Shown: positions 1,046 through 32,557, counted from the first letter of the stretch. The stretch: DNA of 64,000 nt from an uncultured Acidobacteriota bacterium (GCA_963702425.1 CAVPCQ010000038.1:4992-68991), one strand, 5' to 3'. Notes: generated by a model from the sequence alone, not told the origin. Program-made: numbers and translations.

Positions 1046-1106
1046 CGGAAGAATGGCGCTCTTTTGGGCCGACCACGCCCGGCCCTCCGCCCGAGGACTC
1101 CCGACG

Positions 1107-2852
1107 ATGAGCACCGACGCCACGACCGCCTCCCCCGTCCACGGCCTGTTCCTCGGGGAACTCGCCGACGAGCTGGTCTACCCCTACCCGGAGCAGGAGG
1201 CCGACCAGCGCGAGACGACCGACCAGGCGGTCGAGGCCTTCCGCGATTGGGCGCGCGACAACGTCGATGCGCGGGCGATCGACGCCGCCCAGGAGATCCC
1301 CGAGGCGGTGCGCGACGGGATGGCCGAGCTGGGGATCATGGGGATGACGGTCCCCGAGGAGTACGGCGGCTACGGCTTCGGGATGACCGGCTACTGCCGG
1401 ATGGTCGAGGAGCTGACCCGCAACGACGCCTCGCTCTCGGTCTACGTCGGCGCGCACCTGTCGATCGGCGCGCGGCCGATCATCCTCTACGGCTCACCCG
1501 CGCAGCAAGCGAAGATCCTGCCCGGGGTCGCCAGCGGCGAGACGCTCTGCGCTTTCGCGCTGACCGAGCCGGGAGCGGGCTCCGACGCCGGCTCGATGCG
1601 CACGCGCGCGGAGTGGGACGCCGCGAAAGGCGTCTACCGGATCAACGGCAACAAGATCTGGATCACCAACGGCGGCTACGCGAAGCTGTTCACGGTCTTT
1701 GCGCGCGGCTCGGGCGGACCGGCGGGAGAAGGGGAGGGGTTCTCCGCCTTCATGGTGCGGCGCGGCACGCCCGGCTTCACCAACGGCCCGTCGGAGCACA
1801 AGCTCGGGATCCGCGGCACCTCGACCACGGAGCTGGCCTTCGTCGACGTCGAGGTCCCGCCGGAGGATCGCGTCGGACCGTGGGGCGAGGGGTTCAAGAT
1901 CGCGCTCCAGTCGCTCGAGACCGGACGGCTGTCGCTCGGCGCCGGCTGCACCGGCGGGGCCAAGGAGATGGTGCGCCTGGCGGTCGAGCACGCGCGCGAG
2001 CGGCGGCAGTTCCGCCACCCGATCATCGAGTTCGGGATGATCCGCGAGAAGCTGGGCCGGATGGCGGCGTCGGCCTTCGGCGCGGAGTCGGCGGTCTATC
2101 TCGCATCGGGGCTCTACGACGCGAAGCGGGCCGACGTCGGCGTCGAGGCCGGCTACTGCAAGGTGCTGGGCTCCGAGACGCTCTGGCAGGCGGTCAACGA
2201 CACGATCCAGGTCACGGGCGGGATCGGCTACATGACCGAGTACCCCTACGAACGGCACCTGCGCGACAGCCGGATCAACCTGATCTTCGAGGGGACGAAC
2301 GAGATCCTGCGGCTGTCGGCCACGCTGGAAGCGCTCAAGGAGCCGGGCCGCCGCGTGACCGAGGCGATCAAGGCGGAGAAGGCCGAGATCGGCGCGGCGG
2401 GCCTGGTGGCGGCGATGGCGGTCGAGGGGATGCCGTCGGGCCGCACCGCCGGGGGAGCGCGCAGCCTGCGCTGGGTCACGCCCGCGCTCGCGCGCGACGC
2501 CGAGCAGTTCGCCGCGGCGCTGGCGCTGTTCGGCGAGACCGTGCGCGCGACGCTGAGAAAGCACCGCCGCGCGATCCTCGGCGCGCAGTACACGATCCGG
2601 CGGCTCGCCGACGCCGCGATCCAGCTCTACGCGGCGGCGGCGGCCCTCTCCCGCGCCAGCACGCTGGCGCGCGACAAGGGCGAGGACGGCGCGCGGCGCG
2701 AGATCCTGCTCGCCCGACGCTTCGTCGACGAGGCGACCCGCCGCGTGCGCCACGAGCTGGACGTCGTGGACGGCACGCGCGACGCGCTGGACGACGAGAT
2801 CGCGGGGCTGTTGGCGATCGAGGGGCGCTACCCCTCGCCGCTCTTCACCTAG
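1107..2852 (+). CDS. acyl-CoA dehydrogenase, long form with C-terminal extension (VLCAD/ACAD9-like architecture)
   Basis: Track ORF 1053..2852; ATG 1107 (MSTDATT) is the more plausible start. Motifs seen: TEPGAGSDAGS, KIWITNGG, QVTGGIGYM..YPYERHLRDSRINLIFEGTNEI. About 180 aa follow the ACAD core. Confidence 0.85.
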   Translation: MSTDATTASPVHGLFLGELADELVYPYPEQEADQRETTDQAVEAFRDWARDNVDARAIDAAQEIPEAVRDGMAELGIMGMTVPEEYGGYGFGMTGYCRMVEELTRNDASLSVYVGAHLSIGARPIILYGSPAQQAKILPGVASGETLCAFALTEPGAGSDAGSMRTRAEWDAAKGVYRINGNKIWITNGGYAKLFTVFARGSGGPAGEGEGFSAFMVRRGTPGFTNGPSEHKLGIRGTSTTELAFVDVEVPPEDRVGPWGEGFKIALQSLETGRLSLGAGCTGGAKEMVRLAVEHARERRQFRHPIIEFGMIREKLGRMAASAFGAESAVYLASGLYDAKRADVGVEAGYCKVLGSETLWQAVNDTIQVTGGIGYMTEYPYERHLRDSRINLIFEGTNEILRLSATLEALKEPGRRVTEAIKAEKAEIGAAGLVAAMAVEGMPSGRTAGGARSLRWVTPALARDAEQFAAALALFGETVRATLRKHRRAILGAQYTIRRLADAAIQLYAAAAALSRASTLARDKGEDGARREILLARRFVDEATRRVRHELDVVDGTRDALDDEIAGLLAIEGRYPSPLFT

Positions 2853-2860
2853 GAGGCCGG

Positions 2861-3646
2861 ATGGCGCTTCTCGACGGAAAGTACGGGCTGCTCCTCGGGA
2901 TCGCGAACGAGCGCTCCTACGCCTGGCACATCGCGCAGGCGCTCGAGGAAGCCGGCGCGGAGCTGGCGTTCAACGCCCTGCCCGGCGAGAAGAACGAGGC
3001 CCGCACGCGCTTCGCCGTCGACGCGCTGAACATCCCCGACCCCTGGATCCGTCCCTGCGACGTGGCCCGGGACGAAGACATCGACCGGCTCTTCGAGGCC
3101 TACGCAAAGGATTTTCCGCGGCTCGACTTCGTCGTCCACTCGGTCGCCTTCGCCGACCGCGAGTACCTGCAGCCCGGCAAGTTCATCGAGACCCCGCGGG
3201 CCTCGTTCCTGATGGCGCTGGACATCTCGGTCTACTCGCTGATCGCCGTCGCGCGGCGCGCGCGGCCGCTCCTGGCCGCGGCCGGCGGCGGCTCGATCAC
3301 GACGATGAGCCACTACGGCGGCGACAAGGTCTTCCCGGGCTACAACGCGATGGGCGCCTGCAAGGCGGCGCTCGAGGCCAGCGTCCGCTACCTGGCCGAG
3401 GAGCTGGGCGCGGAGAAGATCCGCGTCAACGCGATCTCCGGCGGGGCGTTCAAGACCCTCGCGGCGTCGGGGATCGGCGGGCTCAAGTCGATGCTCGCCG
3501 AGTCCGAGCGCCGTTCCCCGCTGCGGCGCGGTGTCGAGGGGGTCGACGTCGGCGGGACGGCGGTCTACCTGGCCTCGGAGCTCTCCTCCGGAGTCACCGG
3601 CGAGACGATCTTCGTCGACTGCGGGATGAACATCCTCGGCGCCTGA
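2861..3646 (+). CDS. fabI: enoyl-[acyl-carrier-protein] reductase (NADH), FabI type
   Basis: 261 aa, with AGGAGG 5 nt upstream of ATG 2861. Motifs seen: GIANERSYAW, the SDR catalytic Y-x6-K (YNAMGACKAALE), and RVNAISGG..KTLAASGI. It is hidden inside shadow ORF 1064..3646. Confidence 0.85.
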   Translation: MALLDGKYGLLLGIANERSYAWHIAQALEEAGAELAFNALPGEKNEARTRFAVDALNIPDPWIRPCDVARDEDIDRLFEAYAKDFPRLDFVVHSVAFADREYLQPGKFIETPRASFLMALDISVYSLIAVARRARPLLAAAGGGSITTMSHYGGDKVFPGYNAMGACKAALEASVRYLAEELGAEKIRVNAISGGAFKTLAASGIGGLKSMLAESERRSPLRRGVEGVDVGGTAVYLASELSSGVTGETIFVDCGMNILGA

Positions 3647-3677
3647 ACCTCGGGCGCAGTCGGGGGACGGCGGCAGG

Positions 3678-6600
3678 ATGGTCCCGACCCAAGCGGTCCT
3701 GGCGTGGCTCCACCGCACCTTCGCGCTGCGCCGCGGGGAGGGCCGCCGCGCCCTGCTGCTGACCGTCTACCTGGGCGTCGTGATCGCCTCGTACCTGATC
3801 CTGAAAGCGGTTCGCGACGCGCTCTTCATCGCCGCCTTCAGCGCGATGAAGCTGCCCTACGTCATCTTCGGCATCGCGCTCCTGGTGGGCGTGTTCGTCG
3901 ACGTCTACATCAGGATCTCGCGCCGCGTCCCGGCGGCGCGGCTGATCACCTGGACGCTGGCCCTGTTCATCTCGAATCTCCTGGCGTTCTGGGTCCTGGC
4001 GCGGATGGGCTTCACCTGGCTCTTTCCGCTGCTCTATATCTGGGTCGGCTTCTTCGGGGTCGCGGCGCCGGTCCAGGTCTGGACGCTGGCCAACGAGGTC
4101 TTCACGACGCGCGAGGCGAAGCGCGTCTTCGGCATCGTCGGCGGCGGCGGGATCACGGGGGCGATCATCGGCGGCGCGATCGCCAGCGTGCTGGCGATCG
4201 AGATCGGGACCGAGCAGCTGCTGCTGGTGGTCGCGCTGCTGCTGGTGGCCTGCATCGTCCTGGTGCACTGGATCGCGCGCTACCGGTTGCCGGTGCTGCG
4301 CGAGCGGCGGGATGAGGTCCTCCCGTGGAACCTGGCGATCAGCGCGCGGCGGGTGCGGAGTTCCCCGCACCTGCGGGTGCTGGCGGCGCTGGTCTTCGTC
4401 GGCGCGCTGGCCACGACGATCGTCGATTTTCAGTTCAAGGCGGCGGCCGGCGGTGCGGGATTCACCCGCGACGAGCTGACGGCGTTCTTCGCGGCGACCC
4501 TGTCGGCGATGTCGCTGGTCGGCCTCGTCGTCCAGCTCGGGATCGTCCGGCCCGTGCTCCGGTCGCTCGGGTTGGGGGCGGCGATCCTGGTCCTGCCGTT
4601 CTCGCTGCTGCTCGGCGAGTCGACGCTGATCGTGCTGGGCAGCCTGTGGGCCGCGGTCTTCATGAAGGCCAGCGACGGCGCGTTCAAGCACTCGATCGAC
4701 CGCTCGAGCAAGGAGCTGGCCTACCTGCCGGTCCCGGTCGAGATCAAGTTCCAGGTCAAGTCGGCGATCGACATGGTGCTCGATCGGCTGGGGGACGCGA
4801 CGGGCGGCCTGGTCCTGCTCGTGCTCGCGACCTGGCTCGGCTTCTCGATCGTCACGATCGGCTGGGTCAACCTTGCTCTGCTCGGGGCCTGGCTGTTGCT
4901 GGCGCGCCGGCTGCGGCAGTCGTACGTCGACGAGCTGGCGACCTCGATCGGGGCCAAGAGCGCGCGCGCCAGCTACGAGTTGGACGCCTCGCTGATCGAC
5001 GCCGACGCGCGCGCCGGGCTGCGGCGCGCGCTGACCGCCGCCGACCCGCAGACGATCGGGATCGCGCTCGAGCTGGCGTCGCTCTCCCCCGGCAGCGACC
5101 TCGAGCCGGAACTGGCCCAGCTCGCGCAGCACGAGAGCCCGGAGGTCCGCGCGCGCGTGCTGGGTGTGTTCCTCGCACCGGGCGGGTCCGGGCTGCCGCC
5201 CGAGCTGCTCGACCGGCTCGAGGAGGCCGACCACGACCTGCTCGCCAAGGGGCTCGACCTGGTGCTGGCGACGACGCCCGAAGAGCGCCGCGAGCGAGCC
5301 ACGGCGCTGCTCGGCAAGCGTCGGCCCGACACGCAGGGCGTGATGCTGGCGCTGCTGGTGCGGCGGCTCGGCCCCGACTTCGCGCCGGTCGCGGCGCACG
5401 TGCTGGACGGGATGATCGCGGCCGACGCGCCGGCCTCGCTGCGTCGCGCCGCGGCCTCGGCGCTGGGGATGCTCCCCGCCGACTCGGCCCTGGCCGGCAA
5501 GCTCGACGCGCTGCTCGACGACCCCGAAACGGAGGTGCGGGCCCAGGCGGCAGAGAGCGCGGGGCGCCTCGGTCGCAGCGACCTGGTCCCGCGCCTGGTC
5601 GAGCTGCTCGGCTCCCACCGCACGCGACCGCCGGCGCACCGGGCGCTGGTGGCGCTCGGGGGGGAAGCGATCCCGGCTCTCGGGGCAGCCCTCGCCCGGC
5701 AGCGGGGCACCCCCGCTTCGGGCTCGTCGCCGGAGTCGGCGGCCCTGCGGCACGTCCCGGCGGTGCTGCGCGCGATCGGCTCCTCGGGCGCGATCGCGCT
5801 GCTGGTCGACAGCCTCGGCCACCCCGACGAGTTCGTGCGCGAGGCCTCGATCCACGCCGTCGAGCGGTTGCGCGAGCGCGACCCGGAGAACCTGCTGGCG
5901 GGCCCGGAGCTGGTCGATCCCGAGATTGCCGCCGACGGCGAGCGCCACGCCTGGATCCTCGGCCACTACGCGGCAGCCGCGGCCGAGACCGGCCCGGTGG
6001 CCGAGTTCCTCGCCGCGCGGCTGCGCGAGCACCTGGCGCGGGTGCGGCGCCGCGTCCTGTCGCTGCTCCGGATGCGGCTCGGGCCGCGCTCGGCCCAGGC
6101 CGTGGCCCGCGGCCTCGAGTCGGGACGCCCCGACCTGCGCGACAACGCGCTCGAGCTGCTCGACTCGGCCCTGCCGCGCTCGCTGCGCGCCTCGGTCGTG
6201 CCGATGCTGGAGGAGGAGCCGGCGGCGGTGCTCGAGATGCGTGCCGGGGAGCCGATCGGTTACCCTTCCCCGCGCCGCGCGCAGCTGCTGCGCGAGCTGG
6301 CGCTCGGGGCCGACCCGTGGCTCGCGGCCGCGGCGCTGCGGGTGGCCGCGGAGAGCGGGCTGGGCTGGGTCGAGGAGGTCGCGTCGCGCCGCCGCGACCA
6401 CGCGGCCACGGTCCTGGGCGAGGAAGCGCGGCGCGCGATGCGGAGGCGGGGTGGAGCCGAGGGGGAGGGACCGGGCGTGACGATGTCGCTCCTCGATCGC
6501 GCCGTGGCGCTGCGCGCGGTCGACGCCTTCCGCGGCGTCACCACCGATCAGCTCGCGCTGATCGCCGCGATCGCGGCCGAGCAGGTCCTTCCCGAGGGGA

Positions 6601-6893
6601 GCCTGCTGTTCGAGGAGGGGGCGCTCCCCGACAGCCTGTTCGTGGTCCTCGACGGCACCGTGTCGCTCATGCGCCAGGGCGCCCCGATGGGCACCGTCGC
6701 CGCCGGAGAAGCACTCGGCACATGGTCGCTGCTCGACGACGAGCCGCGCTCCGCGCGCGCCGTCGCGGCCACGCCGGTCCGGGTGCTGACGATCGAGCGC
6801 GAAGACTTCTACGACGTGCTCGCCGAGCACAGCGAGATCAGCCGCAGCCTGATGCGCGACCTCGTCGGACGGCTGCGCGAGCTGGCGCACTGA
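3678..6893 (+). CDS. multidomain membrane protein: TLC/Npt-type (ATP:ADP antiporter-like MFS) transporter domain + HEAT-like repeats + C-terminal cyclic-nucleotide-binding domain
   Basis: 1071 aa. The N-terminal ~430 aa are polytopic, with the LRRGEG..LL..YL..I.SYLILKAVRDALF opening typical of Npt1/Npt2-family carriers. The middle is Ala/Leu/Arg-rich helical repeats (..ESPEVRARV.., ..DPETEVRAQAAESAGRLG.., ..HPDEFVREASIHAVERL..). The C-terminus (~6510-6890) carries GSLLFEEGALPDSLFVVLDGTV...AAGEALGTWSLLD..PRSA.A.A, a cNMP-binding fold. Confidence 0.7.
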   Translation: MVPTQAVLAWLHRTFALRRGEGRRALLLTVYLGVVIASYLILKAVRDALFIAAFSAMKLPYVIFGIALLVGVFVDVYIRISRRVPAARLITWTLALFISNLLAFWVLARMGFTWLFPLLYIWVGFFGVAAPVQVWTLANEVFTTREAKRVFGIVGGGGITGAIIGGAIASVLAIEIGTEQLLLVVALLLVACIVLVHWIARYRLPVLRERRDEVLPWNLAISARRVRSSPHLRVLAALVFVGALATTIVDFQFKAAAGGAGFTRDELTAFFAATLSAMSLVGLVVQLGIVRPVLRSLGLGAAILVLPFSLLLGESTLIVLGSLWAAVFMKASDGAFKHSIDRSSKELAYLPVPVEIKFQVKSAIDMVLDRLGDATGGLVLLVLATWLGFSIVTIGWVNLALLGAWLLLARRLRQSYVDELATSIGAKSARASYELDASLIDADARAGLRRALTAADPQTIGIALELASLSPGSDLEPELAQLAQHESPEVRARVLGVFLAPGGSGLPPELLDRLEEADHDLLAKGLDLVLATTPEERRERATALLGKRRPDTQGVMLALLVRRLGPDFAPVAAHVLDGMIAADAPASLRRAAASALGMLPADSALAGKLDALLDDPETEVRAQAAESAGRLGRSDLVPRLVELLGSHRTRPPAHRALVALGGEAIPALGAALARQRGTPASGSSPESAALRHVPAVLRAIGSSGAIALLVDSLGHPDEFVREASIHAVERLRERDPENLLAGPELVDPEIAADGERHAWILGHYAAAAAETGPVAEFLAARLREHLARVRRRVLSLLRMRLGPRSAQAVARGLESGRPDLRDNALELLDSALPRSLRASVVPMLEEEPAAVLEMRAGEPIGYPSPRRAQLLRELALGADPWLAAAALRVAAESGLGWVEEVASRRRDHAATVLGEEARRAMRRRGGAEGEGPGVTMSLLDRAVALRAVDAFRGVTTDQLALIAAIAAEQVLPEGSLLFEEGALPDSLFVVLDGTVSLMRQGAPMGTVAAGEALGTWSLLDDEPRSARAVAATPVRVLTIEREDFYDVLAEHSEISRSLMRDLVGRLRELAH

Positions 6894-6915
6894 GCCGGCA
6901 GGGCAAGGGGAGACG

Positions 6916-7380
6916 ATGACGGAACCGGGGAACGAGAAGGCGCAGCTGCTGGTCGTCGACGACGACGTCCTGGTCACGCGCACGCTGTCCTTCCTCTTCG
7001 CGGGCCAGGACGACTTCGCGGTCCAGATGTTCAATGATCCGCGCGCGGCGCTGCAGCACCTCGAGAGCCACTCCGTCGACGTCGTCGTCGCCGACTACCT
7101 GATGCCGGGGATGGACGGGCTGCAATTCCTGTCCGAGGTGCGCCGGACGCACCCTGCGGCGAGCCGGATCATCCTCACCGGCTACGCCGACAAGGACGCG
7201 GCGATCCGCGCGATCAACGAGGTCGGCCTCTACCACTTCCTCGAGAAGCCGTGGCGCAACGAAGAGCTGCTGCTGATCCTGCGCCACGCGGCCGAGCGGG
7301 CGCGGCTCGTGTCCGAGCTGGAGCGCCGTACCGGCGACATTGCCGCCTTCCGCGAGAAGCTGTTCCGGGCCCTCCTGTGA
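6916..7380 (+). CDS. response regulator, stand-alone receiver domain
   Basis: 154 aa with AAGGGGAG upstream. Receiver signatures seen: LLVVDDD, VVVADYLMPGMDG, IILTGY, EKPW. Confidence 0.85.
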   Translation: MTEPGNEKAQLLVVDDDVLVTRTLSFLFAGQDDFAVQMFNDPRAALQHLESHSVDVVVADYLMPGMDGLQFLSEVRRTHPAASRIILTGYADKDAAIRAINEVGLYHFLEKPWRNEELLLILRHAAERARLVSELERRTGDIAAFREKLFRALL

Positions 7381-8561
7381 CCGAGCCGCTCGCGGCTTGC
7401 CAGGAGCTGTTCGAGGGGCACGTCGACCCCGGTGCCCTGCTCGATGCCGGCCTCGCCGTCCTCGTGCAGAACGCCGCCGCGCGCGGGGTGTTCGGCGAAG
7501 GCGTGGGCCGGCCCTGCTACGCGCTGCACTTCGGCCGCGAGGCGCCGTGTCCCGGCTGCCGCGCCGCGGAAGTGACCCACGACGGCGCGGCGCTGCGCTG
7601 GATGATGGAGGTTGCCGGGGAGTTTCCAGGGGCGGCGCGATCCGGGGTGTGGGAGGTGACACTCATCCCGGTGAAGGATGCCGCCGGGCGCGTCACCCGG
7701 TTCGTCGAGCTGCTGCGCGACGCGACGCTGAGCCTCGGGCTGGAGCAGCATCTGATCGAACTGGCGCGGGGCCTCGACCTCGAGATTGCCCGTCGCACCA
7801 CCGAAGCCGGGGAGTTGACCCAGCGCGCGCGCGCACTGCAGGCCGAGATCGAGCGCCTCACCGAGGAGGAGGCGGATCTGCTCCGGACCGAGCGGATGGC
7901 GGCGCTGGGGCGGGTCGTTGCCGGCGTGGCGCACGAGATCCACACCCCCCTCGGCGCGATCCTCTCGACGCTGGAGATGGTCCGGGCGCGACTGGCCGAC
8001 GGGCGGGCCGACGAGCTGAGCGAACTGGTCGAACTGATGCAGGACGCCGGCGAACGGATCCGTAAGGTGGTCCGCACGCTGCGCGTCTTCTCGCGCCTCG
8101 ACGCCGCGCAGATCGAGACGGTGGACATCCACGAGGGGCTGGAGTCGTCGCTGCACCTGCTGGCGCACGAGATGCAGCCCCGGGTGGCGGCCCTGTGCGA
8201 GTACGGCGAGACCCCGCGGGTCCGCTGCCGGCCGGACCAGATCAACCAGATCTTCCTGAATATCCTGCGGAACGCCGTGCAGGCGATCGAAGGACAGGGC
8301 ACCATCACGGTGCGTACGTTCGCGCACGAGGGTGCGGCCGTGGTCGAGATCGAGGACACCGGGCCCGGGATCGCCGCCGAGAACCTGGAGCGGGTCTTCG
8401 AGGCCGGGTTCACGACCAAACCCCGCGGCGAGGGGACGGGCTGGGGCCTGTCGATCTGCCGGCGGATCGTGCACGAGCACGGCGGTGAGATCGCCGTGCG
8501 CAGCACGGTCGGGCGCGGCACGACGTTCCGCATCACGCTGCCGATCGAGGGACCGCCATGA
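7377..8561 (+). CDS. sensor histidine kinase (PAS-like N-terminus with four Cys, HisKA, HATPase_c)
   Basis: GTG 7377 overlaps the receiver gene's stop (GTGA). Motifs seen: H-box RMAALGRVVAGVAHEIHTPLGAI, N-box FLNILRNAVQA, G1 EDTGPGI, G2 GTGWGLSI. The N-terminal segment contains RPCYALHFGREAPCPGCRAAEV. The track ORF (7251) starts inside the upstream gene. Confidence 0.8.
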   Translation: MTEPLAACQELFEGHVDPGALLDAGLAVLVQNAAARGVFGEGVGRPCYALHFGREAPCPGCRAAEVTHDGAALRWMMEVAGEFPGAARSGVWEVTLIPVKDAAGRVTRFVELLRDATLSLGLEQHLIELARGLDLEIARRTTEAGELTQRARALQAEIERLTEEEADLLRTERMAALGRVVAGVAHEIHTPLGAILSTLEMVRARLADGRADELSELVELMQDAGERIRKVVRTLRVFSRLDAAQIETVDIHEGLESSLHLLAHEMQPRVAALCEYGETPRVRCRPDQINQIFLNILRNAVQAIEGQGTITVRTFAHEGAAVVEIEDTGPGIAAENLERVFEAGFTTKPRGEGTGWGLSICRRIVHEHGGEIAVRSTVGRGTTFRITLPIEGPP

Positions 8562-10555
8562 GTTGCCCGCCCCGACGCCTCCCGTCCCTGCTCTCCTTCG
8601 TGCTCACCGCCGCGGCGGTGGGTATCGCGACGGTCCCGGCTTCGCGCGCCGGCGCGCCCGGAGACCCTCCGACGTGGCGCTACGCCGGGGTCGAGCGCGT
8701 CGTCGCGATCGGCGACGTCCACGGCAGCTACGAGCCGCTGGTCGAGGTGCTGCGCGCCGCGGGGCTGATCGACGAGGCGCTGGCCTGGAGCGGCGGCAAG
8801 GCGCACCTCGTGATGCTCGGCGACCTCGTCGACCGCGGTCCGAAGGAGCGCGAGGTGCTGGACCTCGTCATGCGGCTCGAACGCGAGGCGCCGGAAGCCG
8901 GCGGCCAGGTGCACGTGCTGCTCGGCAACCACGAGGTGATGAACCTGGTCGGCGACCTGCGCTACGTCTCGAAGGCCGGCTACGCCGAGTACGCCGAGGC
9001 GACCCCGCCCAGGGAGCGCGAACAGGCGCTGGCCCGCTTCATGCGGTCCGGCGGCGGCGCGGAGACCGGCCCCGAGGGGGTGCTGCCGCGGTTCAACGAG
9101 CTCTACCCGCCCGGGTACTTCGAGCGACAGAAGGCCTTCTCGGCGAGCGGCGCCTACGGCCGCTGGCTGCTCTCGAAGTCCTTCATCCTCGTGATCGACG
9201 ACGTCGCGTACGTGCACGGCGGCCTGCCGCCGAGCGTGGCCTCGGAGGGCGCGGAGGCACTCAACCGGTCGCTGATGCAGGAGATCCAGGCCTACATCAA
9301 GGCGCGCGAGACGCTGATCGAGGCCGGTCTGCTCGACCCGGAGACGAGCTTCGTCGAGTCGTTCCAGCGGGTCGGGCAGAAGGTGGAAGAGGCCGAGGCC
9401 AAGGGGCAGGCGCTGCCGGAGGCGTCTGCGAAGGCGGCCGAGACCCTGCTGGCGAGCGCGGGCGCCTACGCCTTCAGCAATGAGAACCCGTTCTGGTACC
9501 GCGGCACGTCGCTCAACCCCGAGCCGCAGGAACTGCCGGCCTTCGAGGCGGCGCTGGCGAAGCTGGGCGCGAAGTCGGTGGTCGTCGGACACACCACCAC
9601 CCCCGGCGGGCGGATCACCTCGCGCTTCGGCGGGCGCCTGCTGCGCGCGGACACGGGGATGCTGAGCGAGGTCTACCGCGGCCGCGGCGCGGCGGTCGTG
9701 GCGGAGGGCGGGACGCGGCGGACGCTCTACCCCGGCGACCCGGCGGACACCAAGCCCGTTCCCGAGACGAAGGAGGAGCCGGGTCCGATCGTCGCCCAGG
9801 GGATGCCTGACGCAGCGCTCGAGACCTTCCTGAAGACCGCCGACGTGGTCAAGATCGAGGACATCGGCTCCGGCATCACCCGGCCCAAGCGGCTGTCGCT
9901 GCAGAAGGACGGCGTTTCACGGCGCGCGGCGTTCAAGTACGTCGACGAGACGTTCGACTCGACGGTGCGCATCGCCGGCCGCCTGGAGATGCAGTTCAAC
10001 GACCGTTACATCTACGACGTCGCGGCCTACCGGCTCGACCGGCTGCTCGAGATGGACATGGTGCCGGTCGCGGTCGAGCGGACGGTCGACGGTACCGCGG
10101 GGGCGGTGCAGGACTGGATCGAGAACGCGATCGACGAGGGGCGGCGTGTGACCGAGAAGCTCGAGCCCTATGACGCCGAGTCCTTCAAGCGCCAGACCCA
10201 GGTGATGCGCGTCTTCGACGCGCTGATCTACAACGCGGACCGCAACCAGGGGAACATCCTCTACACCCCCGGGGACTGGAAGCTGCACCTGATCGACCAC
10301 ACGCGCGCGTTCCGGCTCGGCACGGGGCGCCCGCCGGGCCTCGTCGACGTGCCACTCGTGATCGAGCCCGAGCTGCGCGTGCGGCTCGCGGCACTGAACG
10401 AGGAGCAGTTGAAGTCGGCCCTCGGTGGCCTGCTGAGCAACGCGCAGATCGGCGCGATCCTGAAGCGCCGCGACAAGCTGCTGGCGGAGACGGTGCCGAA
10501 GGCGGCGCCCAAGGCACCGGCCAGCGCCGCGCCGGCCGTGAAGCGCGCCTCGTAG
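8558..10555 (+). CDS. secreted fusion protein: calcineurin-like (Shewanella-like/PPP-type) metallophosphoesterase + C-terminal PI3/PI4-kinase-like (protein-kinase-fold) domain
   Basis: ATG 8558 overlaps the kinase gene's stop (ATGA). Signal peptide: LLSFVLTAAAVGIATVPASRA. Phosphoesterase motifs: AIGDVHGSY, MLGDLVDRGP, LLGNHEVMN, VHGG, VVVGHT. The C-terminal ~225 aa (about 9800-10477) carry FDALIYNADRNQGNILY (10217-10261) and LIDHTRAF (10289-10312). These resemble the catalytic and activation segments of type II PI4K-like kinases. Confidence 0.7.
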   Translation: MSCPPRRLPSLLSFVLTAAAVGIATVPASRAGAPGDPPTWRYAGVERVVAIGDVHGSYEPLVEVLRAAGLIDEALAWSGGKAHLVMLGDLVDRGPKEREVLDLVMRLEREAPEAGGQVHVLLGNHEVMNLVGDLRYVSKAGYAEYAEATPPREREQALARFMRSGGGAETGPEGVLPRFNELYPPGYFERQKAFSASGAYGRWLLSKSFILVIDDVAYVHGGLPPSVASEGAEALNRSLMQEIQAYIKARETLIEAGLLDPETSFVESFQRVGQKVEEAEAKGQALPEASAKAAETLLASAGAYAFSNENPFWYRGTSLNPEPQELPAFEAALAKLGAKSVVVGHTTTPGGRITSRFGGRLLRADTGMLSEVYRGRGAAVVAEGGTRRTLYPGDPADTKPVPETKEEPGPIVAQGMPDAALETFLKTADVVKIEDIGSGITRPKRLSLQKDGVSRRAAFKYVDETFDSTVRIAGRLEMQFNDRYIYDVAAYRLDRLLEMDMVPVAVERTVDGTAGAVQDWIENAIDEGRRVTEKLEPYDAESFKRQTQVMRVFDALIYNADRNQGNILYTPGDWKLHLIDHTRAFRLGTGRPPGLVDVPLVIEPELRVRLAALNEEQLKSALGGLLSNAQIGAILKRRDKLLAETVPKAAPKAPASAAPAVKRAS

Positions 10556-10606
10556 CCGGCGTCCCGAGCCGGCCCGCGCGGCCGCCGCGGGTCCAGGAGG
10601 CTGTCC

Positions 10607-11647
10607 GTGAGCGACCGCGCACGCCCGTGGCGACGGTTGGCGCTGAACACGCTCCTCGTGGTCGCGTCGGTGGCCATCGCGCTCGGGCTTGTCGACCTCC
10701 TGCTGATCGTCACGCACACCCCTGTCCACGGACCGATCTGGGAGGCTCAGGGGCTCTTCCGCCTCGATCGGGAGCTGATCTACTCGCTGGTCCCCGGTAA
10801 GAAACGGGTCTGGCGCACCGACGAGTTCGCGGAGCAGGCCTCCATCAACCGGGAGGGGCTGCGGGGCGCCGAGCTTCGGGAACGACGGGGGATCGACTCG
10901 CGCATCATCGTGACCGGCGACTCCGTCGTCTTCGGCCACGGCGTCGGCGACGGAGAGGCCTTTCCGAAGCAGCTCGAGGCGATCTTCGCGTCCGAGGGCC
11001 GCAACGTCGAGGTGCTCAACGCGGGCGTGAAAGGCTACGGCACCGACCAGTCGTTCAAGTCCTTCGATCGTCGCCTGCAGGCCCTGAAACCGGATGTCCT
11101 GGTGTTCGCCGTCAACACCAACGACGTGGCCGACAACATCCGGCAACCGCTCTATACCGTGCAGGACGGCCGGCTTCGCGAGCTCGACGCAACGCGCAAC
11201 CCGTTCTACCGGGTCGTCTGGCTCGATTCGCACCTCCCGGGGGCCGTCCGCCGCACCGACCTGTACGGGCGGCTCGTCACCCGGCTGCTCCGCGCCGACT
11301 GGGATCGCGCGCTTCCCGACAGCGACCCCGATCGGCTCAAGGCGTGGTCCCGGGAGAAGGTCGTGCTGGAGATTGAGTCGCTTCACGACCGGTCCCGGTC
11401 GGCCGGCTTCCGGCTCGTCGTGCTGGGGCTCCCCAGCACGGCGCCCAACGCGTTCCGATGGCTGCGGTCGAGCCTGCCCGAGGGCGTCGATTTCCTCGAC
11501 GCGAACGAGGTCGAAGCCTGGGCGAGCGAACCGTCCCGGTGGTTCCTGAACGACCGGACTCACCTCACCGTGGCCGGCAACGAGCGGCTCGCCCAGCGGC
11601 TCTACGCCCACCTGCTCGACACGGAGAGCCCCGCCACCGCACCATAG
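10607..11647 (+). CDS. SGNH/GDSL-family hydrolase with N-terminal membrane anchor
   Basis: 346 aa, with AGGAGG 6 nt upstream of GTG 10607. TM helix: LALNTLLVVASVAIALGLVDLLLIV. Block I is IIVTGDSVVFGHG. Later blocks (AGVKGYGT; FLNDRTHLTVAGNERLA) fit the SGNH layout. Confidence 0.6.
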   Translation: MSDRARPWRRLALNTLLVVASVAIALGLVDLLLIVTHTPVHGPIWEAQGLFRLDRELIYSLVPGKKRVWRTDEFAEQASINREGLRGAELRERRGIDSRIIVTGDSVVFGHGVGDGEAFPKQLEAIFASEGRNVEVLNAGVKGYGTDQSFKSFDRRLQALKPDVLVFAVNTNDVADNIRQPLYTVQDGRLRELDATRNPFYRVVWLDSHLPGAVRRTDLYGRLVTRLLRADWDRALPDSDPDRLKAWSREKVVLEIESLHDRSRSAGFRLVVLGLPSTAPNAFRWLRSSLPEGVDFLDANEVEAWASEPSRWFLNDRTHLTVAGNERLAQRLYAHLLDTESPATAP

Positions 11648-11702
11648 GACAGCCGTCGCGTCGAATGCGTGGTGGCGAGGCCGGGCCAACTCCGGGGTGG
11701 AC

Positions 11703-13543
11703 ATGACGGTGCACGACTCGCCAGCCTTCATCCTCGGGATCTCGGCCTTCTACCACGATTCCGCCGCCTGTCTCGTGCAGGATGGCCGGATCGTCGCTGC
11801 GGCCCAGGAAGAACGCTTCACGCGCCGGAAGCACGACGCGGGATTCCCGCGGCACGCGATCGACTACTGCCTGCGCGAGGCGCGCATCGGCCCGGACCGG
11901 CTGACCGCGGTCGCCTTCTACGACAAGCCGTGGATCAAGTTCGAGCGGCTGCTCGAAACCTACCTCGCGTTCGCGCCCGGCCGGTCGTGTCCTCCTTCCT
12001 GAAGAGCATGCCGCTCTGGCTGAAGCAGAAGCTCTGGATCGGCGACCTGATCGCGCGCGAGCTGGGCTACGACGGCGATCTGCTCTTCCCGGAGCACCAC
12101 CAGTCGCACGCCGCGTCCGCCTTCTTCCCGTCTCCCTTCGAGCGAGCCGCGTTCCTGACGATGGACGGGGTGGGGGAGTGGGCCACCGCTTCCTGGGGCG
12201 TCGGGCACGGCAACCGGGTCGAGATCTCGCACGAGCTGCGCTTCCCGCACAGCCTCGGCCTGCTCTACAGCGCCTTCACCTACTACACCGGCTTCAAGGT
12301 CAACTCGGGGGAGTACAAGGTGATGGGGCTAGCGCCCTACGGCGAGCCCCGGTACGCCGGGCTGATCTACGACCACCTCCTCGACCTGCGCGAGGACGGC
12401 TCGTTCCGCCTCAACATGGAGTACTTCAACTACTGCCAGGGCCTGACGATGACCTCGGAGCGGTTCCACCGGCTCTTCGGCGGCCCGCCGCGGGCGGCGG
12501 AGTCCGAGGTCACGCAGCGCGAGATGGACCTCGCCCGCTCGCTGCAGGACGTCACCGAGGAGGTCATGCTGCGGATGGCGCGCCACGTGCGGAAGGCGAC
12601 CGGGGAGCGGAACCTGTGCCTCGCCGGCGGCGTCGCGCTCAACTGCGTCGGGAACGGGAGAATCCTGCGAGAGCGAGTGTTCGACCGGCTGTGGATCCAG
12701 CCCGCCGCCGGTGATGCCGGAGGCGCCCTCGGCGCCGCGCTCTTCGCCTGGCACCAGGTCCGCGGCGAGCCCCGCCGCGCGGACCCGGGTCGCGACAGCC
12801 AGTCGGGCTCGTACCTCGGACCCGCGTTTCCCGGCGATGCGATCCGGCAGTGGCTCGACGGTGCGGGCATTCCGTACCGCACGCACTCCCCGTCCGAGAT
12901 CCCGGGCCTCGCGGCCGAACTGATTGCGCAGGAGAAGGTCGTGGGGTGGTTCTCCGGGCGGATGGAGTTCGGGCCCCGGGCGCTGGGGGCCCGGAGCATC
13001 CTCGGGGACGCCCGCAGCCCGAAGATGCAGTCGGTCCTGAACCTCAAGATCAAGTTCCGGGAGTCGTTCCGCCCCTTCGCGCCATCCTGCCTGGTCGAGG
13101 ACGTGTCGGAGTACTTCGAGCTGGAGGTCGAGTCGCCGTACATGCTCCTCGTCGCGCCGGTCGTCGAGACGCGACGGCTCGCGATGAGCGCGGAGCAGTC
13201 GGCGCTGTTCGGGATCGAGAAGCTCAACGTCCCGCGCAGCGACATCCCCGCGGTGACGCACGTCGACTACTCGGCGCGCGTGCAGACGGTCGACGCCCGC
13301 GATCACGCGCAGTACCACGAGCTGATCCGTGAGTTCAAGCGGCGGACCGGGTACGGGGTCATCATCAACACGTCGTTCAACGTCCGCGGCGAGCCGATCG
13401 TCTGCACGCCGCAGGATGCCTACCTGTGCTTCATGCGGACGCAGATGGACGCGCTGGTGCTGGAGGACTGCGTGCTGCTCAAGGAAGAGCAGCCGCCGCT
13501 GAAGGACGACGTCGACTGGAGATCGCAGTATGGCCTCGACTGA
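11703..13543 (+). pseudogene. carbamoyltransferase (NodU/CmcH family), reading frame interrupted by a -1 shift near 11976-11992
   Basis: The first ~100 aa (frame of 11697..12002) read MTVHDSPAFILGISAFYHDSAACLV...FERLLETYLAFAP. The remaining ~515 aa (frame of 11669..13543) read ..SFLKSMPLWLKQKLW..HHQSHAASAFF..GEYKVMGLAPYG... Together they are the two halves of one enzyme. The first frame hits TGA at 12000. The switch lies in gcgcccggccgg (C/G runs). This may be an assembly indel. Confidence 0.8.
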
Positions 13544-13958
13544 GGGGATCGGCCTGCCGGCGAGGCCCGCGACGCGCAGCGGCCGCGAGCTGCGGACGTT
13601 CGGGCTGGTGATGGCGGGAGCGTTCGGCGCGCTGGGTGGCCTGGCGGCGTGGCGCGGCCGGTCCGCCGGGCCGGTCCTGCTCGGCGTGGCGGCCGCCTTC
13701 CTGCTGCTCGGGCTGGCCTTGCCGCGGCTCCTCCGGCCCGTCGAGAAGGCCTGGATGGCGGTCGCGCGGGTGATGGGCGTCGTGATGACGCACGTCATCC
13801 TGACGCTCTTCTACTACCTCGTGATCACACCGTTCGGAATCGCGATGCGGATCGCCGGCCGCGACCCCCTGGGGCTGAAGGCGGCCCCGGCGCGCGAGTC
13901 CTTCTGGGAAGCGGTCGATCCGCAGGGATCGGCCTCCCGCCCGGACAAGCCCTATTGA
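13530..13958 (+). CDS. SxtJ-family small membrane protein
   Basis: 142 aa, overlapping the carbamoyltransferase stop by 14 nt. It has two or three hydrophobic helices and the ..LL.P.EK.WM..A..MG...T.VIL...YYLVITP.G...R..G.DPL pattern I associate with SxtJ proteins found next to carbamoyltransferases. Confidence 0.6.
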   Translation: MASTEGIGLPARPATRSGRELRTFGLVMAGAFGALGGLAAWRGRSAGPVLLGVAAAFLLLGLALPRLLRPVEKAWMAVARVMGVVMTHVILTLFYYLVITPFGIAMRIAGRDPLGLKAAPARESFWEAVDPQGSASRPDKPY

Positions 13959-23299: not shown

Positions 23300-23404
23300 C
23301 GCGCGCTAGGATAGCGAACACCGGGTTGTGGGGCAGGGCGGCCAAGACTACCCTTGCCCGTCACGCCCCGACCCGCGCCGCGCGCGCCCCCCAATGGATC
23401 GATC

Positions 23405-24643: not shown

Positions 24644-24681
24644 GCCGGCGCACGCCGCCGGCCCGGAGCGAGACTGCCGCC

Positions 24682-28818: not shown

Positions 28819-28945
28819 TCGCTGACCTCTCGAAAGAAATGGTACGGCCGGGCGCGAACGGCGCGCAAGCCGCCATCGCGGGCTCCGTCCCACGCGCGGG
28901 AGCGGACGCGCGCGGGACCGCGCGCCCGACGGTTTGCAGCCGCGC

Positions 28946-32350: not shown

Positions 32351-32447
32351 CGAACCTCCGGGTGCGTCGAGTGCCGCCGGGATGATAGCGGAGCGGGAGC
32401 GGCACGCGTCGCCCGCCGGAGGAGAGCGATCCGAGCCGGCGGCCGCA

Positions 32448-32531: not shown

Positions 32532-32557
32532 CGGCTGCCGATACAGGGGGCCCGTCC

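What the first reader, a model, noticed from the sequence alone, without database searches (positions are those of the whole stretch)
6916..10555. Receiver, Cys-rich PAS histidine kinase and phosphatase/kinase-like exoprotein are translationally coupled (GTGA and ATGA overlaps)
The three genes share overlapping stop and start codons: 7377-7380 (GTGA) and 8558-8561 (ATGA). This implies co-expression as one unit. The receiver has no output domain. The kinase has no TM segment, and its sensory region has four cysteines in 22 residues (C-x12-C-x2-C after an initial C), suggesting a metal or redox cofactor. The third gene product is exported. A cytoplasmic two-component pair hard-wired to an exported bifunctional phospho-enzyme is not a standard arrangement. 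The transporter-HEAT-cNMP gene directly upstream (22 nt away) may belong to the same unit.
Basis: partly seen in the sequence, partly recalled or inferred. Interest (0 to 1): 0.5.

Follow-up and report, generated by a model that had tools for sequence, protein, structure and literature searches.

The report
Transporter-linked exported kinase-phosphatase operon
The three overlapping genes are real and belong to a conserved four-gene cassette in which an ATP/ADP-translocase-like transporter and a small cytoplasmic two-component sensor sit beside an exported enzyme that fuses a PP-type phosphatase to a Fam20/PI4K-like kinase; this suggests, without proving, that some bacteria run ATP-dependent phosphorylation outside the cytoplasm.

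Summary
The GTGA (7377-7380) and ATGA (8558-8561) overlaps, the output-less receiver, the TM-less PAS kinase and the exported phosphatase/kinase-like protein are all present. The cysteine description is wrong: it is C47-x10-C58-x2-C61, with a non-conserved C8 39 residues upstream.

The triad recurs in at least 12 other contigs, down to 38-47% identity. It is nearly always preceded by the NTT(TLC)-HEAT-cNMP transporter.

The deeper conserved unit is different: transporter plus exported Shelph-type PPP phosphatase plus exported Fam20/PI4KII-like kinase.
- 42 of 80 genomic loci of the exoprotein have an NTT gene, 41 of them adjacent.
- 65 of 80 metagenomic loci of the transporter carry the phosphatase and/or kinase genes, fused or separate, nearly all with signal-peptide-like N-termini.
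- The receiver-kinase pair is a lineage-specific insert found only where a cNMP domain is present.

Best hypothesis (inferred): the transporter exchanges ATP for ADP across the inner membrane to feed a periplasmic kinase/phosphatase cycle. cNMP and a Cys3-PAS (probably metal or Fe-S) two-component input control it from the cytoplasm.

I found no description of this module in the literature I could search. Interest is high; the mechanism is unproven.

The parts
3678..6893 (+). NTT(TLC)-HEAT-cNMP-binding transporter, 1071 aa. About 12 TM segments lie in aa 27-409. The cytoplasmic HEAT repeats and a C-terminal cyclic-nucleotide-binding domain follow.
   Evidence: Pfam: TLC 68 bits (cut-off 21), HEAT_2, cNMP_binding 59 bits. 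Hydropathy. The architecture matches the NTT-HEAT-cNBD fusions of Major et al. 2017. It is adjacent to exoprotein homologues in 41 of 80 loci.
6894..6915 (+). 22-nt spacer between the transporter and receiver genes, containing a GGGGAG Shine-Dalgarno-like motif.
   Evidence: Read directly from the sequence. The same short spacing is seen in L001-L003, L081 and L082.
6916..7380 (+). Stand-alone receiver (REC) protein, 154 aa, with phospho-acceptor D60 (within 7081-7107) and a ~30-aa helical tail. It has no output domain.
   Evidence: Pfam Response_reg, 7.6e-25, aa 12-122. Motifs located. The closest NCBIfam REC is the RpfG/NosR type.
7377..7380 (+). GTGA stop/start overlap between the receiver and the HK.
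   Evidence: The same 4-nt overlap occurs in L001-L003, L081 and L082.
7377..8561 (+). Soluble histidine kinase, 394 aa. The Cys3-PAS sensor occupies aa 1-135 (nt 7377-7781) and is followed by a coiled coil. HisKA carries H186 (within 7929-7952). HATPase_c carries the N, G1 and G2 boxes.
   Evidence: Pfam. No TM segment. Orthologue alignment A2.
7515..7559 (+). Cys3 signature G-x2-C47-Y-x9-C58-x2-C61 in the PAS cofactor-pocket region.
   Evidence: Invariant in 6 orthologues. C47, C58 and C61 are present in 100%, 96% and 98% of 309 related PAS domains. C47 aligns with the LOV photoactive-Cys position.
8558..8561 (+). ATGA stop/start overlap between the HK and the exoprotein, with a GAGGG SD-like motif 6 nt upstream.
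   Evidence: The 4-nt overlap is conserved in 12 of 14 loci (the window plus 13 related loci).
8558..10555 (+). Exported bifunctional protein, 665 aa. The signal-peptide-like N-terminus spans aa 1-31 (cleavage-like ASRA/G). The Shelph-type PPP phosphatase spans about aa 44-400 (GDVHG 8711-8725, GDLVDRG 8819-8839, GNHE 8924-8935). The Fam20/PI4KII-like kinase spans about aa 415-650 (FK460 9926-9937, E/AAYRLDRLL 10016-10048, N-x-DR-x3-N 10232-10255, IDH 10289-10300).

Best explanation
SHOWN. Window 3678-10555 is one conserved, tightly packed four-gene cassette of an uncultured Acidobacteriota bacterium.
- It comprises an NTT(TLC)-HEAT-cNMP transporter, a stand-alone receiver, a soluble Cys3-PAS histidine kinase, and an exported Shelph-phosphatase/Fam20-PI4KII-like-kinase fusion.
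- Its ancient core is the transporter plus the exported phosphatase and kinase. These are neighbours across Acidobacteriota, Gammaproteobacteria and Desulfatiglandales, whether fused or split.
- The receiver-kinase pair was inserted between transporter and exoenzyme in one cNMP-domain-bearing sub-lineage.

INFERRED mechanism.
- The NTT domain, a relative of ATP/ADP antiporters, exchanges cytoplasmic ATP for periplasmic ADP. This supplies an otherwise ATP-free compartment.
- The kinase domain has an intact ATP-Lys, alphaC-Glu, catalytic Asp/Asn and metal Asp. It phosphorylates an envelope substrate (protein, glycan or lipid).
- The fused PPP phosphatase reverses that phosphorylation.
- Flux is set from the cytoplasm by cNMP binding to the transporter's C-terminal domain.
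- In this lineage there is a second input. A redox or metal signal is read by the Cys3 site in the PAS pocket. It drives H186 to D60 phosphotransfer, and the output-less receiver acts by protein-protein contact, most plausibly on the HEAT/cNMP tail.
- The overlapping stop/start codons keep sensor and exoenzyme stoichiometrically co-expressed.
For: Cassette and synteny. The triad or tetrad is found in L001-L003, L081 and L082, L084, L085, L087 and L089, and L091, L093 and L094. In L083 the transporter abuts the exoprotein directly, with no RR/HK.

Core linkage.
- The NTT gene is present in 42 of 80 exoprotein loci and directly adjacent in 41 (median gap 23 nt in the clustered set). It occurs in three different orientations.
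- After de-replication at 70% identity, 21 of 49 clusters keep the NTT neighbour.
- The neighbours pass Pfam's TLC cut-off.
- Reciprocally, 65 of 80 NTT-HEAT loci carry Shelph and/or kinase-like genes, and 48 carry both. That is 16 of 23 clusters at 70% identity.

Export. Hydrophobic N-termini are found in 94 of 99 fusions, 57 of 58 stand-alone kinases and 49 of 49 stand-alone phosphatases. The mature protein has no Cys.

Phosphatase identity. The match to the Shewanella CAPTPase is 6e-52.

Module variants.
- L088 has the kinase domain alone after the HK.
- L085 and L087 have an extra divergent stand-alone kinase gene.

Recurring cNMP theme. The cNBD is fused here, is a separate gene in L088, L093 and L094, and is replaced by a Crp-type regulator next to the exoprotein in Steroidobacteraceae.

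RR/HK presence. The pair is present only where a cNBD is present.

The absence of ATP from the periplasm is the standard view; papers using such phrases were retrieved but not read.
Against: - No transport, kinase, phosphatase or localisation assay exists for any member. The substrate and direction of transport are inferred from family membership only. The NCBIfam NTP/NDP-exchanger model scores 39 bits against a cut-off of 387.
- ATP could leak through outer-membrane porins.
- 38 of 80 exoprotein loci show no NTT within 6 kb.
- L086 has transporter, RR and HK but no exoprotein. L089 has RR, HK and exoprotein but no visible transporter.
- The kinase-like domain fails Pfam's own cut-offs for PI3_PI4_kinase and HipA_2, and it could be a lipid or sugar kinase or another nucleotidyl-transferase.
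- The receiver's target is unknown.
- No promoter or terminator could be defined in this 72% GC DNA.
- Many of the metagenomic loci are close relatives of each other.
Confidence: 0.4

Rival explanations
1. Nucleotide or phosphate scavenging module. The exported PPP/ApaH-like phosphoesterase processes extracellular nucleotides or dinucleoside polyphosphates. The NTT imports the products. The kinase-like domain binds or converts nucleotides rather than phosphorylating envelope targets. cNMP and the two-component pair tune uptake to the energy or phosphate state.
For: All characterised NTTs import nucleotides (the background given). The phosphatase domain also scores against ApaH and PrpE bis-nucleosyl-tetraphosphatases, though weakly. 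The same gene linkage is equally compatible with import.
Against: The phosphatase domain is far closer to the Shelph protein-tyrosine phosphatase (6e-52) than to ApaH (1e-6). An intact Fam20/PI4KII-type catalytic core is conserved in hundreds of exported proteins, which is hard to explain without an extracytoplasmic phosphate donor. Some loci carry two or three kinase domains.
Confidence: 0.2
2. The transporter carries a different solute, for example NAD+, SAM, a nucleotide-sugar, or the substrate or product of the exoenzymes. The kinase and phosphatase then act on a lipid or glycan envelope component using a donor delivered in another way. The module is an envelope-modification pathway rather than an ATP-supply system.
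For: The NTT family is known to include carriers of solutes other than ATP: the reference list seen cites NAD transport by Chlamydia Npt1 and a SAM carrier in Amoebophilus. The closest folds include a lipid kinase (PI4KIIa) and a sugar kinase (Fam20B xylosylkinase). Some neighbouring NTTs carry an Ig-like He_PIG domain.
Against: Any kinase of this fold still needs a nucleotide triphosphate at its site of action. No other candidate donor-delivery gene is conserved in the neighbourhood.
Confidence: 0.25
3. Ordinary two-component operon whose neighbours are functionally unrelated. The overlaps simply reflect compact operon packing, and the synteny reflects recent common descent.
For: Four-nucleotide overlaps are common (general knowledge). 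The RR/HK pair is absent from 77 of 80 genomic loci of the exoprotein family. The closest loci, L001-L003, are near relatives.
Against: The order transporter, RR, HK, exoprotein persists to 38-47% identity in at least four sub-lineages, while the flanking genes change. The RR/HK pair is always placed between transporter and exoenzyme, and only where a cNBD is present. The transporter-exoenzyme linkage spans phyla and orientations.
Confidence: 0.05

Closest known systems
NTT-HEAT and NTT-HEAT-cNBD fusion transporters (Major, Embley & Williams 2017, PMC5381601)
   Same: The upstream gene has exactly this architecture: TLC/NTT domain, HEAT repeats and a cyclic-nucleotide-binding domain. The cNBD is fused in some loci and a separate downstream gene in others.
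   Different: That paper reports no function and mentions no linkage to kinases, phosphatases or two-component genes in the passages I read. Here the transporter is systematically adjacent to exported Shelph and Fam20-like genes.
Eukaryotic secretory-pathway kinases (Fam20C, Fam20B, Fam20A), which depend on ATP imported into the ER/Golgi lumen
   Different: This is bacterial and is fused to a PPP phosphatase. It does not reach any Pfam Fam20 match at E<=0.01. The transporter is NTT-type and not SLC35-type. The substrate is unknown.
Shelph (Shewanella-like PPP) phosphatases, e.g. the cold-active protein-tyrosine phosphatase 1V73/2Z72
   Same: The N-domain matches at E 6e-52 and carries GDxHG, GDxxDRG, GNHE and downstream His motifs.
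   Different: Here the domain is fused to, or encoded beside, a kinase domain and an NTT transporter. No physiological role of bacterial Shelphs is known to me (own knowledge).
Type II phosphatidylinositol 4-kinase (PI4KIIa/b)
   Different: The Pfam PI3_PI4_kinase score is 17.4 bits against a cut-off of 27.1. The protein is exported. I know of no evidence for phosphoinositides in these bacteria (own knowledge).
Fe-S PAS sensors with three cysteine ligands: OrpR (D. vulgaris) and NreB (B. licheniformis)
   Same: Three conserved Cys lie in a cytoplasmic PAS sensor domain that controls a phospho-relay or EBP. The Cys residues sit in the Ealpha-Falpha pocket region.
   Different: The motifs differ: C-x8-C-x3-C in OrpR and C-x2-C-x11-C in NreB, against C-x10-C-x2-C here. 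There is no detectable sequence relationship. The cofactor here is untested and could equally be Zn.
Bacterial atypical kinases CtkA, HipA and CotH
   Different: They are clearly more distant than Fam20 and PI4KII. HipA is a cytoplasmic toxin kinase, CotH acts in spore-coat assembly and CtkA is a secreted H. pylori kinase (own knowledge). In the literature I searched, none is linked to an NTT.

Membership tests
Two-component system (HisKA-type histidine kinase + receiver) | HK with a phospho-acceptor H-box (HisKA) and N/G1/G2 ATP-binding boxes (HATPase_c) | tested here: met
   HisKA 9.7e-13 and HATPase_c 4.1e-29. AHEIHTPL (H186), NILRNAV, DTGPGI and GTGWGL located.
Two-component system (HisKA-type histidine kinase + receiver) | Receiver with an acidic pocket, phospho-acceptor Asp, and conserved Thr/Ser and Lys | tested here: met
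   Response_reg 7.6e-25. D15/D16, D60, T88 and K111 present.
Two-component system (HisKA-type histidine kinase + receiver) | Phosphotransfer between the adjacent HK and receiver | not testable with these tools
   Only adjacency and co-inheritance are seen, in about 16 loci.
NTT / TLC nucleotide transporters (Pfam PF03219; TC 2.A.12) | Sequence membership above the curated threshold, and about 12 TM helices | tested here: met
   TLC 68 bits against a cut-off of 21. About 12 hydrophobic segments in aa 27-409.
NTT / TLC nucleotide transporters (Pfam PF03219; TC 2.A.12) | Membership of the characterised NTP/NDP exchanger group (TIGR00769) | tested here: not met
   39 bits against a cut-off of 387. 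It is a distant sub-family, so ATP/ADP exchange is inferred and not established.
NTT-HEAT-cNBD fusion clade (Major et al. 2017) | NTT domain followed by HEAT repeats and a cyclic-nucleotide-binding domain | tested here: met
   TLC, HEAT_2/HEAT and cNMP_binding lie in that order in one 1071-aa protein. The architecture is described.
PPP-family phosphatase, Shelph subgroup | GDxHG, GDxxDRG and GNHE motifs, and a close profile match to a solved Shelph | tested here: met
   The motifs are invariant in A1. 2z72/1v73 match at E 6e-52 over three stretches.
PPP-family phosphatase, Shelph subgroup | Phosphoprotein (Tyr/Ser/Thr) phosphatase activity | not testable with these tools
Fam20 / four-jointed secretory-pathway kinases | Fam20-type kinase fold with ATP-Lys, alphaC-Glu, catalytic Asp and metal-binding Asp | tested here: met
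Fam20 / four-jointed secretory-pathway kinases | Sequence-family membership (a Pfam Fam20 model) at the curated threshold | tested here: not met
   No Fam20 family is listed at E<=0.01 in the Pfam scan. The relation is seen only by profile against PDB (1e-10) and by fold. I therefore describe it as 'works like / related to' and not as a member.
PI3/PI4-kinase family (PF00454) and HipA_2 (PF20613) | Score above Pfam's gathering threshold | tested here: not met
   PI3_PI4_kinase 17.4 bits against 27.1. HipA_2 17.9 bits against 27. TIGR03843 39 bits against 172.
Sec/Tat-exported protein | N-terminal signal peptide: positive n-region, hydrophobic h-region, AxA-like site | tested here: inconclusive
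   RR at aa 6-7, h-region aa 8-26 and ASRA/G at 28-32, conserved in 94 of 99 homologues. No dedicated signal-peptide predictor or experiment was available. A signal-anchor is not excluded; either way the domains would face the periplasm.
Fe-S (or metal) binding PAS sensors (NreB / OrpR type) | Conserved Cys ligands in the PAS pocket | tested here: met
   C47, C58 and C61 are invariant in orthologues and present in 96-100% of 309 related domains. The position corresponds to the LOV cofactor pocket.
Fe-S (or metal) binding PAS sensors (NreB / OrpR type) | Same Cys spacing or sequence relationship as NreB/OrpR, and a bound cluster | tested here: not met
   The spacing differs. No sequence match to any solved PAS of that kind was found. 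The cofactor itself is not testable here.
c-type haem PAS (CXXCH) | CXXCH motif | tested here: not met
   The motif is C-P-G-C-R, with no His after the second Cys. The family consensus is C-x-x-C-P.

The most novel reading that the evidence does not exclude
Free-living Gram-negative bacteria of several phyla possess a dedicated extracytoplasmic phosphorylation system. An NTT-type antiporter exports ATP into the periplasm. There a Fam20/PI4KII-like kinase and a Shelph phosphatase write and erase phosphate on envelope proteins, glycans or lipids. In some Acidobacteriota this is gated by cNMP and by a Cys3-PAS (Fe-S or metal) two-component input. This would be a bacterial counterpart, and possibly an evolutionary relative, of the eukaryotic secretory-pathway kinase system. 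It would also give NTT-HEAT fusions and bacterial Shelphs their first function.
Probability: 0.3. Interest if true: 0.9.

Novelty: new variant of a known kind. Interest (0 to 1): 0.72.

Why it matters
The periplasm is generally treated as lacking ATP, so envelope processes there are assumed to run without kinases. Here an ATP/ADP-translocase relative is linked, across phyla, to exported proteins that keep a complete Fam20/PI4KII-type kinase active site, and to an exported PPP phosphatase. That is the gene signature one would expect of ATP-fuelled reversible phosphorylation outside the cytoplasm.

If confirmed, it would do three things.
- It would assign a function to three orphan families: NTT-HEAT(-cNBD) transporters of free-living bacteria (uncharacterised as of the 2017 survey, PMC5381601), bacterial Shelph phosphatases, and this kinase-like domain.
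- It would provide a prokaryotic parallel to secretory-pathway kinases.
- It would show how cytoplasmic signals (cNMP, redox or metal via a Cys3-PAS kinase and a stand-alone receiver) can control chemistry in the envelope.

The core pair is present in cultured Halieaceae (L016, L026, L031, L035), so the idea is directly testable.

Tried and rejected
- The idea that RR/HK is a general partner of the exoprotein is rejected. tblastn and HMM scans find the pair in only 3 of 80 genomic loci.
- The first all-vs-all ORF clustering was polluted by shadow ORFs on the opposite strand of the exoprotein gene. I repeated it after masking that gene.
- The promoter/terminator scan of 2700-11800 found nothing. 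The GC-rich hairpin after the exoprotein stop is no better than shuffles (z = -0.73). Operon ends therefore could not be defined.
- A PDB sequence search with the PAS region gave no meaningful hit. A profile of the Cys3-PAS family hit only generic PAS and LOV domains, so no solved member reveals the cofactor.
- A c-type haem (CXXCH) reading of C58-x2-C61 is rejected, because no His follows.
- An alternative HK start at GTG 7251 is rejected. Its 42-aa extension is Arg/Ala/Pro-rich, lies inside the receiver gene, and is absent from all orthologues.
- The L001 HK could not be aligned full-length because of a frameshift near 5070.
- Literature searches found no description of the module. I searched Fam20 + bacteria/periplasm, Shewanella-like phosphatase + kinase, NTT + HEAT + cNBD, kinase-like families, and periplasmic kinase/ATP (passages read).
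- I did not use the second structure-prediction job on the PAS domain, because coordinates are not returned and Cys-Cys distances could not have been measured.

Full report
1. WHAT IS IN THE SEQUENCE

The window has 72% G+C. A third-position GC filter picks out a run of plus-strand genes.
- 233-1045: Methyltransf_28.
- 1053-2852: acyl-CoA dehydrogenase.
- 2861-3646: a FabI-like short-chain dehydrogenase hidden inside a longer spurious ORF, 89% identical to its counterpart in L081.
- 3678-6893, 6916-7380, 7377-8561 and 8558-10555: the four genes discussed below.
- 10607-11647 (GDSL hydrolase), 11669-13543 (carbamoyltransferase) and 13530-13958 (SxtJ-like).

The receiver's TGA is at 7378-7380 and the kinase's GTG at 7377. 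The kinase's TGA is at 8559-8561 and the third gene's ATG at 8558.

The domain assignments are as follows.
- The receiver is REC only, with D60, T88 and K111 present.
- The kinase has no hydrophobic segment. It contains a weak PAS_4 match, HisKA (H186) and HATPase_c.
- The third protein has one N-terminal hydrophobic segment (aa 8-26, then ASRA/G), a Metallophos domain, and a C-terminal region with sub-threshold PI3_PI4_kinase, HipA_2 and SCO1664 similarity.
- The upstream gene is a TLC/NTT transporter of about 12 TM helices with HEAT repeats and a cNMP-binding domain. It ends 22 nt before the receiver.

The N-terminal sensor region's cysteines are C8, C47, C58 and C61 (three more lie in the catalytic core). 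The motif is therefore C-x10-C-x2-C in 15 residues, with a distant fourth Cys. It is not 'four in 22, C-x12-C-x2-C'.

2. IS THE TRIAD SYNTENIC ELSEWHERE?

The 665-aa protein has more than 2400 full-length homologues. I scanned one genome per species with an alignment of 21 of them (A1) and kept 80 loci.

tblastn and HMM searches of the flanks gave a clear split.
- A receiver and this kind of kinase occur in only three loci, L001-L003. These are Acidobacteriota MAGs whose exoprotein is 80-90% identical.
- A TLC-type transporter lies in 42 of the 80 loci and is directly adjacent in 41.
- The transporter is adjacent in three orientations. In the clustered set of 34 loci there are 15 same-strand downstream copies, 25 convergent copies and 1 upstream copy, with a median gap of 23 nt. 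The three upstream copies in L001-L003 come in addition.
- The carriers are Halieaceae, Steroidobacteraceae, Lysobacterales, Desulfatiglandales and Acidobacteriota.
- These neighbours pass Pfam's TLC threshold.
- After single-linkage de-replication at 70% identity, 21 of 49 clusters keep the transporter neighbour.

Look-ups of individual homologues filled the gap between 90% and 45% identity.
- At 63-65% exoprotein identity (L081, L082), the block transporter / receiver (154 aa) / kinase (394-395 aa) / exoprotein is intact with overlapping junctions. The downstream genes differ, for example ArsR/ArsP in L081.
- At 49% identity (L083), the transporter-HEAT-cNMP gene abuts the exoprotein gene directly and there is no receiver or kinase.

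I then searched with the kinase itself and found a second tier of full-length relatives at 41-47% identity. Their contexts are as follows.
- L084: a cut gene that is the cNMP end of a transporter fusion, then receiver, kinase and an 898-aa exoprotein.
- L085 and L087: transporter, receiver, kinase and a ~900-aa exoprotein with a duplicated kinase-like domain.
- L089: receiver, kinase and exoprotein, with no transporter in view.
- L086: transporter, receiver and kinase, with no exoprotein.
- L088: transporter-HEAT, a separate cNMP gene, receiver, kinase and a 279-aa protein. That protein is a signal peptide plus the kinase-like domain alone, 47% identical to aa 409-645 of the window protein.
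- L085 and L087 also carry an additional 274-aa exported kinase-like gene, divergent from the transporter gene.

The kinase-to-exoprotein junction is a 4-nt overlap in 12 of 14 loci (the window plus 13 related loci).

3. RECIPROCAL TEST

An alignment of nine transporter-HEAT(-cNMP) proteins (A4) retrieved 80 metagenomic loci. An ORF/HMM scan of these gave the following.
- The five closest loci (39-42% identity, all with a cNMP domain) have receiver and Cys-PAS kinase immediately downstream. The exoprotein follows wherever the contig continues.
- The remaining loci are NTT-HEAT without a cNMP domain, mostly from soil. They have no receiver or kinase. Their typical order is kinase-like gene, Shelph-type phosphatase gene, NTT-HEAT gene, kinase-like gene.
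- In total, 65 of 80 loci carry the phosphatase and/or kinase-like genes, and 48 carry both. At 70% identity that is 16 of 23 clusters.
- 57 of 58 stand-alone kinase-like ORFs and 49 of 49 stand-alone phosphatase ORFs have a hydrophobic N-terminal segment ahead of the domain.

The old conserved unit is thus transporter plus exported phosphatase plus exported kinase, with domains fused or split in different lineages. The receiver-kinase pair is an accessory that appears only together with the cNMP domain. In Steroidobacteraceae a Crp-type regulator (cNMP_binding + HTH_Crp_2) sits divergently upstream of the exoprotein instead. This again ties the module to cyclic nucleotides.

4. WHAT THE PARTS ARE

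N-domain of the exoprotein. A profile of A1 matches the Shewanella cold-active PPP-type protein-tyrosine phosphatase (2z72/1v73) at E 6e-52. ApaH, Rhilph and PP2A are far weaker. GDVHG, GDLVDRG, GNHE and the later His residues are invariant. It is a Shelph.

C-domain of the exoprotein.
- AlphaFold2 with 76 sequences gave pLDDT 93 and pTM 0.87.
- A domain-only profile (A6) hits FAM20A at 1e-10 and FAM20C at 7e-7. The alignments pair the ATP-binding FK, the E-x-AA[YF]-x-LDR-[IL]L helix, the N-x-DR catalytic loop and the [IL]-D-[HN] metal-binding motif.
- All of these are invariant or nearly so in the family.
- It does not reach Pfam's thresholds for PI3_PI4_kinase or HipA_2, and it shows no Pfam Fam20 hit. 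I therefore treat it as a relative that works like those kinases, not as a member.

Transporter. It belongs to the NTT-HEAT-cNBD fusions catalogued by Major, Embley and Williams (2017). They found these fusions broadly in bacteria and stated that the function is unknown.

PAS domain.
- An exhaustive search with aa 1-135 found 1177 representative proteins. Many have several tandem copies, up to 7 in P0241.
- In 309 aligned domains, C47, C58 and C61 are present in 100%, 96% and 98%, within a G-x2-C-Y-x9-C-x2-C-P consensus. C8 is not conserved.
- No solved structure belongs to this sub-family.
- In profile alignments, C47 falls on the position of the LOV photoactive cysteine, that is, in the PAS cofactor pocket.
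- Three-cysteine Fe-S PAS sensors are known: OrpR with C52/C61/C65 and [4Fe-4S], and B. licheniformis NreB with C-x2-C-x11-C and [2Fe-2S].
- Their spacing differs and no sequence relationship is detectable. A metal or Fe-S site is therefore a reasonable guess and not a finding. CXXCH haem binding is excluded because no His follows.

5. HOW IT MOST LIKELY WORKS

Shown:
- a conserved, tightly packed cassette;
- a cross-phylum linkage between the NTT and the exported kinase and phosphatase;
- intact catalytic motifs;
- export-type N-termini;
- an ordinary-looking, probably functional HK/REC pair without a DNA-binding output.

Inferred:
- A kinase outside the cytoplasm needs a nucleotide triphosphate, and the periplasm is generally regarded as lacking ATP. 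The conserved partner is a relative of ATP/ADP antiporters. In a cell with high internal ATP, such an antiporter would export ATP and retrieve ADP.
- I therefore propose that the transporter fuels a periplasmic phosphorylation/dephosphorylation cycle carried out by the exoprotein.
- I propose that the cNMP domain controls the transporter from the cytoplasm.
- In this lineage, I propose that the Cys3-PAS kinase acts through the stand-alone receiver, perhaps by docking on the HEAT/cNMP tail, as a second cytoplasmic control.
- The conserved 4-nt overlaps would couple translation of sensor and exoenzyme.

I put about 0.9 on the cassette being a selected functional unit and about 0.4 on this mechanism.

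Main rivals:
- Import-directed nucleotide scavenging (0.2).
- A transporter for some other solute within an envelope-modification pathway (0.25).
- Fortuitous operon packing (0.05), which the synteny data largely exclude.

Weak points:
- There is no biochemical evidence for any member.
- The NCBIfam exchanger model is far below its threshold.
- 38 of 80 exoprotein loci lack an adjacent NTT.
- L086 and L089 each lack one component.
- Many metagenomic loci are close relatives of each other.
- Operon boundaries could not be defined.

6. COMPARISON WITH WHAT IS KNOWN, AND NOVELTY

Each domain family is known. The two-component pair is an ordinary member of its class, although REC-only and embedded in an unusual operon.

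The combination is not in the literature I could search. That combination is an NTT-HEAT(-cNBD) transporter, an exported Shelph phosphatase, an exported Fam20/PI4KII-like kinase and, in one lineage, a Cys3-PAS kinase with a stand-alone receiver. The closest functional analogue is the eukaryotic secretory-pathway kinase system, which depends on ATP transported into the lumen (my own knowledge).

I therefore rate it a new variant of a known kind. If periplasmic ATP supply is demonstrated, it would be new for bacteria.

7. VERDICT

Interest 0.72.

Noticed in passing
window 2861-3646 (+): A FabI-like short-chain dehydrogenase gene (261 aa, 89% identical to the one in L081) is masked in the mechanical ORF list by a spurious 860-aa ORF (1064-3646). 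An unsupported minus-strand ORF (2849-3718) with no Pfam hit overlaps it.
   Followed up: yes
L001 4819-6004: The kinase orthologue in the closest genome (a long-read MAG) has a frameshift near 5070, and its N-terminus lacks C8. This is probably an assembly indel, but a pseudogene is not excluded.
   Followed up: partly
L084 2054-4750; L087 9001-11706; L091 11778-14510; P0014, P0016, P0018, P0020: A sub-family of ~900-aa exoproteins carries a second, tandem kinase-like domain after the first.
   Followed up: partly
L085 1-825 (-); L087 3260-4084 (-); L090 6072-6890 (-); L091 6060-6899 (-): An extra stand-alone exported kinase-like gene (~274 aa) lies divergently upstream of the transporter gene, giving up to three kinase-like domains per locus.
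   Followed up: partly
L007, L009, L011, L013, L015, L022, L023, L025, L028, L060 (about 5150-5900 and 7730-9150 in 6-kb-flank loci): In Steroidobacteraceae-type loci a Crp/Fnr-type regulator (cNMP_binding + HTH_Crp_2, 229 aa) sits divergently upstream of the exoprotein gene. The NTT gene is convergent, and the 3' ends of the two genes overlap by about 53-56 nt.
   Followed up: partly
L027 7895-9529 (-); L016 9238-11910 (-): Some gammaproteobacterial NTT neighbours carry a C-terminal He_PIG Ig-like domain instead of HEAT repeats. This may imply a different topology for the C-terminus.
   Followed up: no
P0241 (1709 aa) and many of P0243-P0389: The Cys3-PAS domain (G-x2-C-Y-x9-C-x2-C-P) occurs in up to seven tandem copies in large multi-PAS signalling proteins. 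It is a populous PAS sub-family with no solved structure and no cofactor assignment that I could find.
   Followed up: partly
L092 10114-13108: About 3 kb of additional sequence separates the transporter gene from the receiver/kinase genes in this locus. Its content was not examined.
   Followed up: no
L084 4817-5845; L087 11729-12784: A 342-351-aa protein with a hydrophobic N-terminus and weak OMP_b-brl or faint TSP_3 hits follows the long exoprotein in two loci. It is a possible outer-membrane partner or substrate.
   Followed up: no
window 10607-13958 (+): GDSL hydrolase, carbamoyltransferase and an SxtJ-like small membrane protein follow the cassette. This trio is shared only with the closest genome (L001) and is not part of the conserved unit.
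   Followed up: partly
window 21646-22068 (-), 28258-29073 (-), 28946-32644 (-): Unrelated genes elsewhere in the window include a DUF6982 protein, an Uma2-family endonuclease whose ORF overlaps the start of a 1232-aa tricorn-like protease, and a MacB-type efflux set (23354-26624).
   Followed up: no
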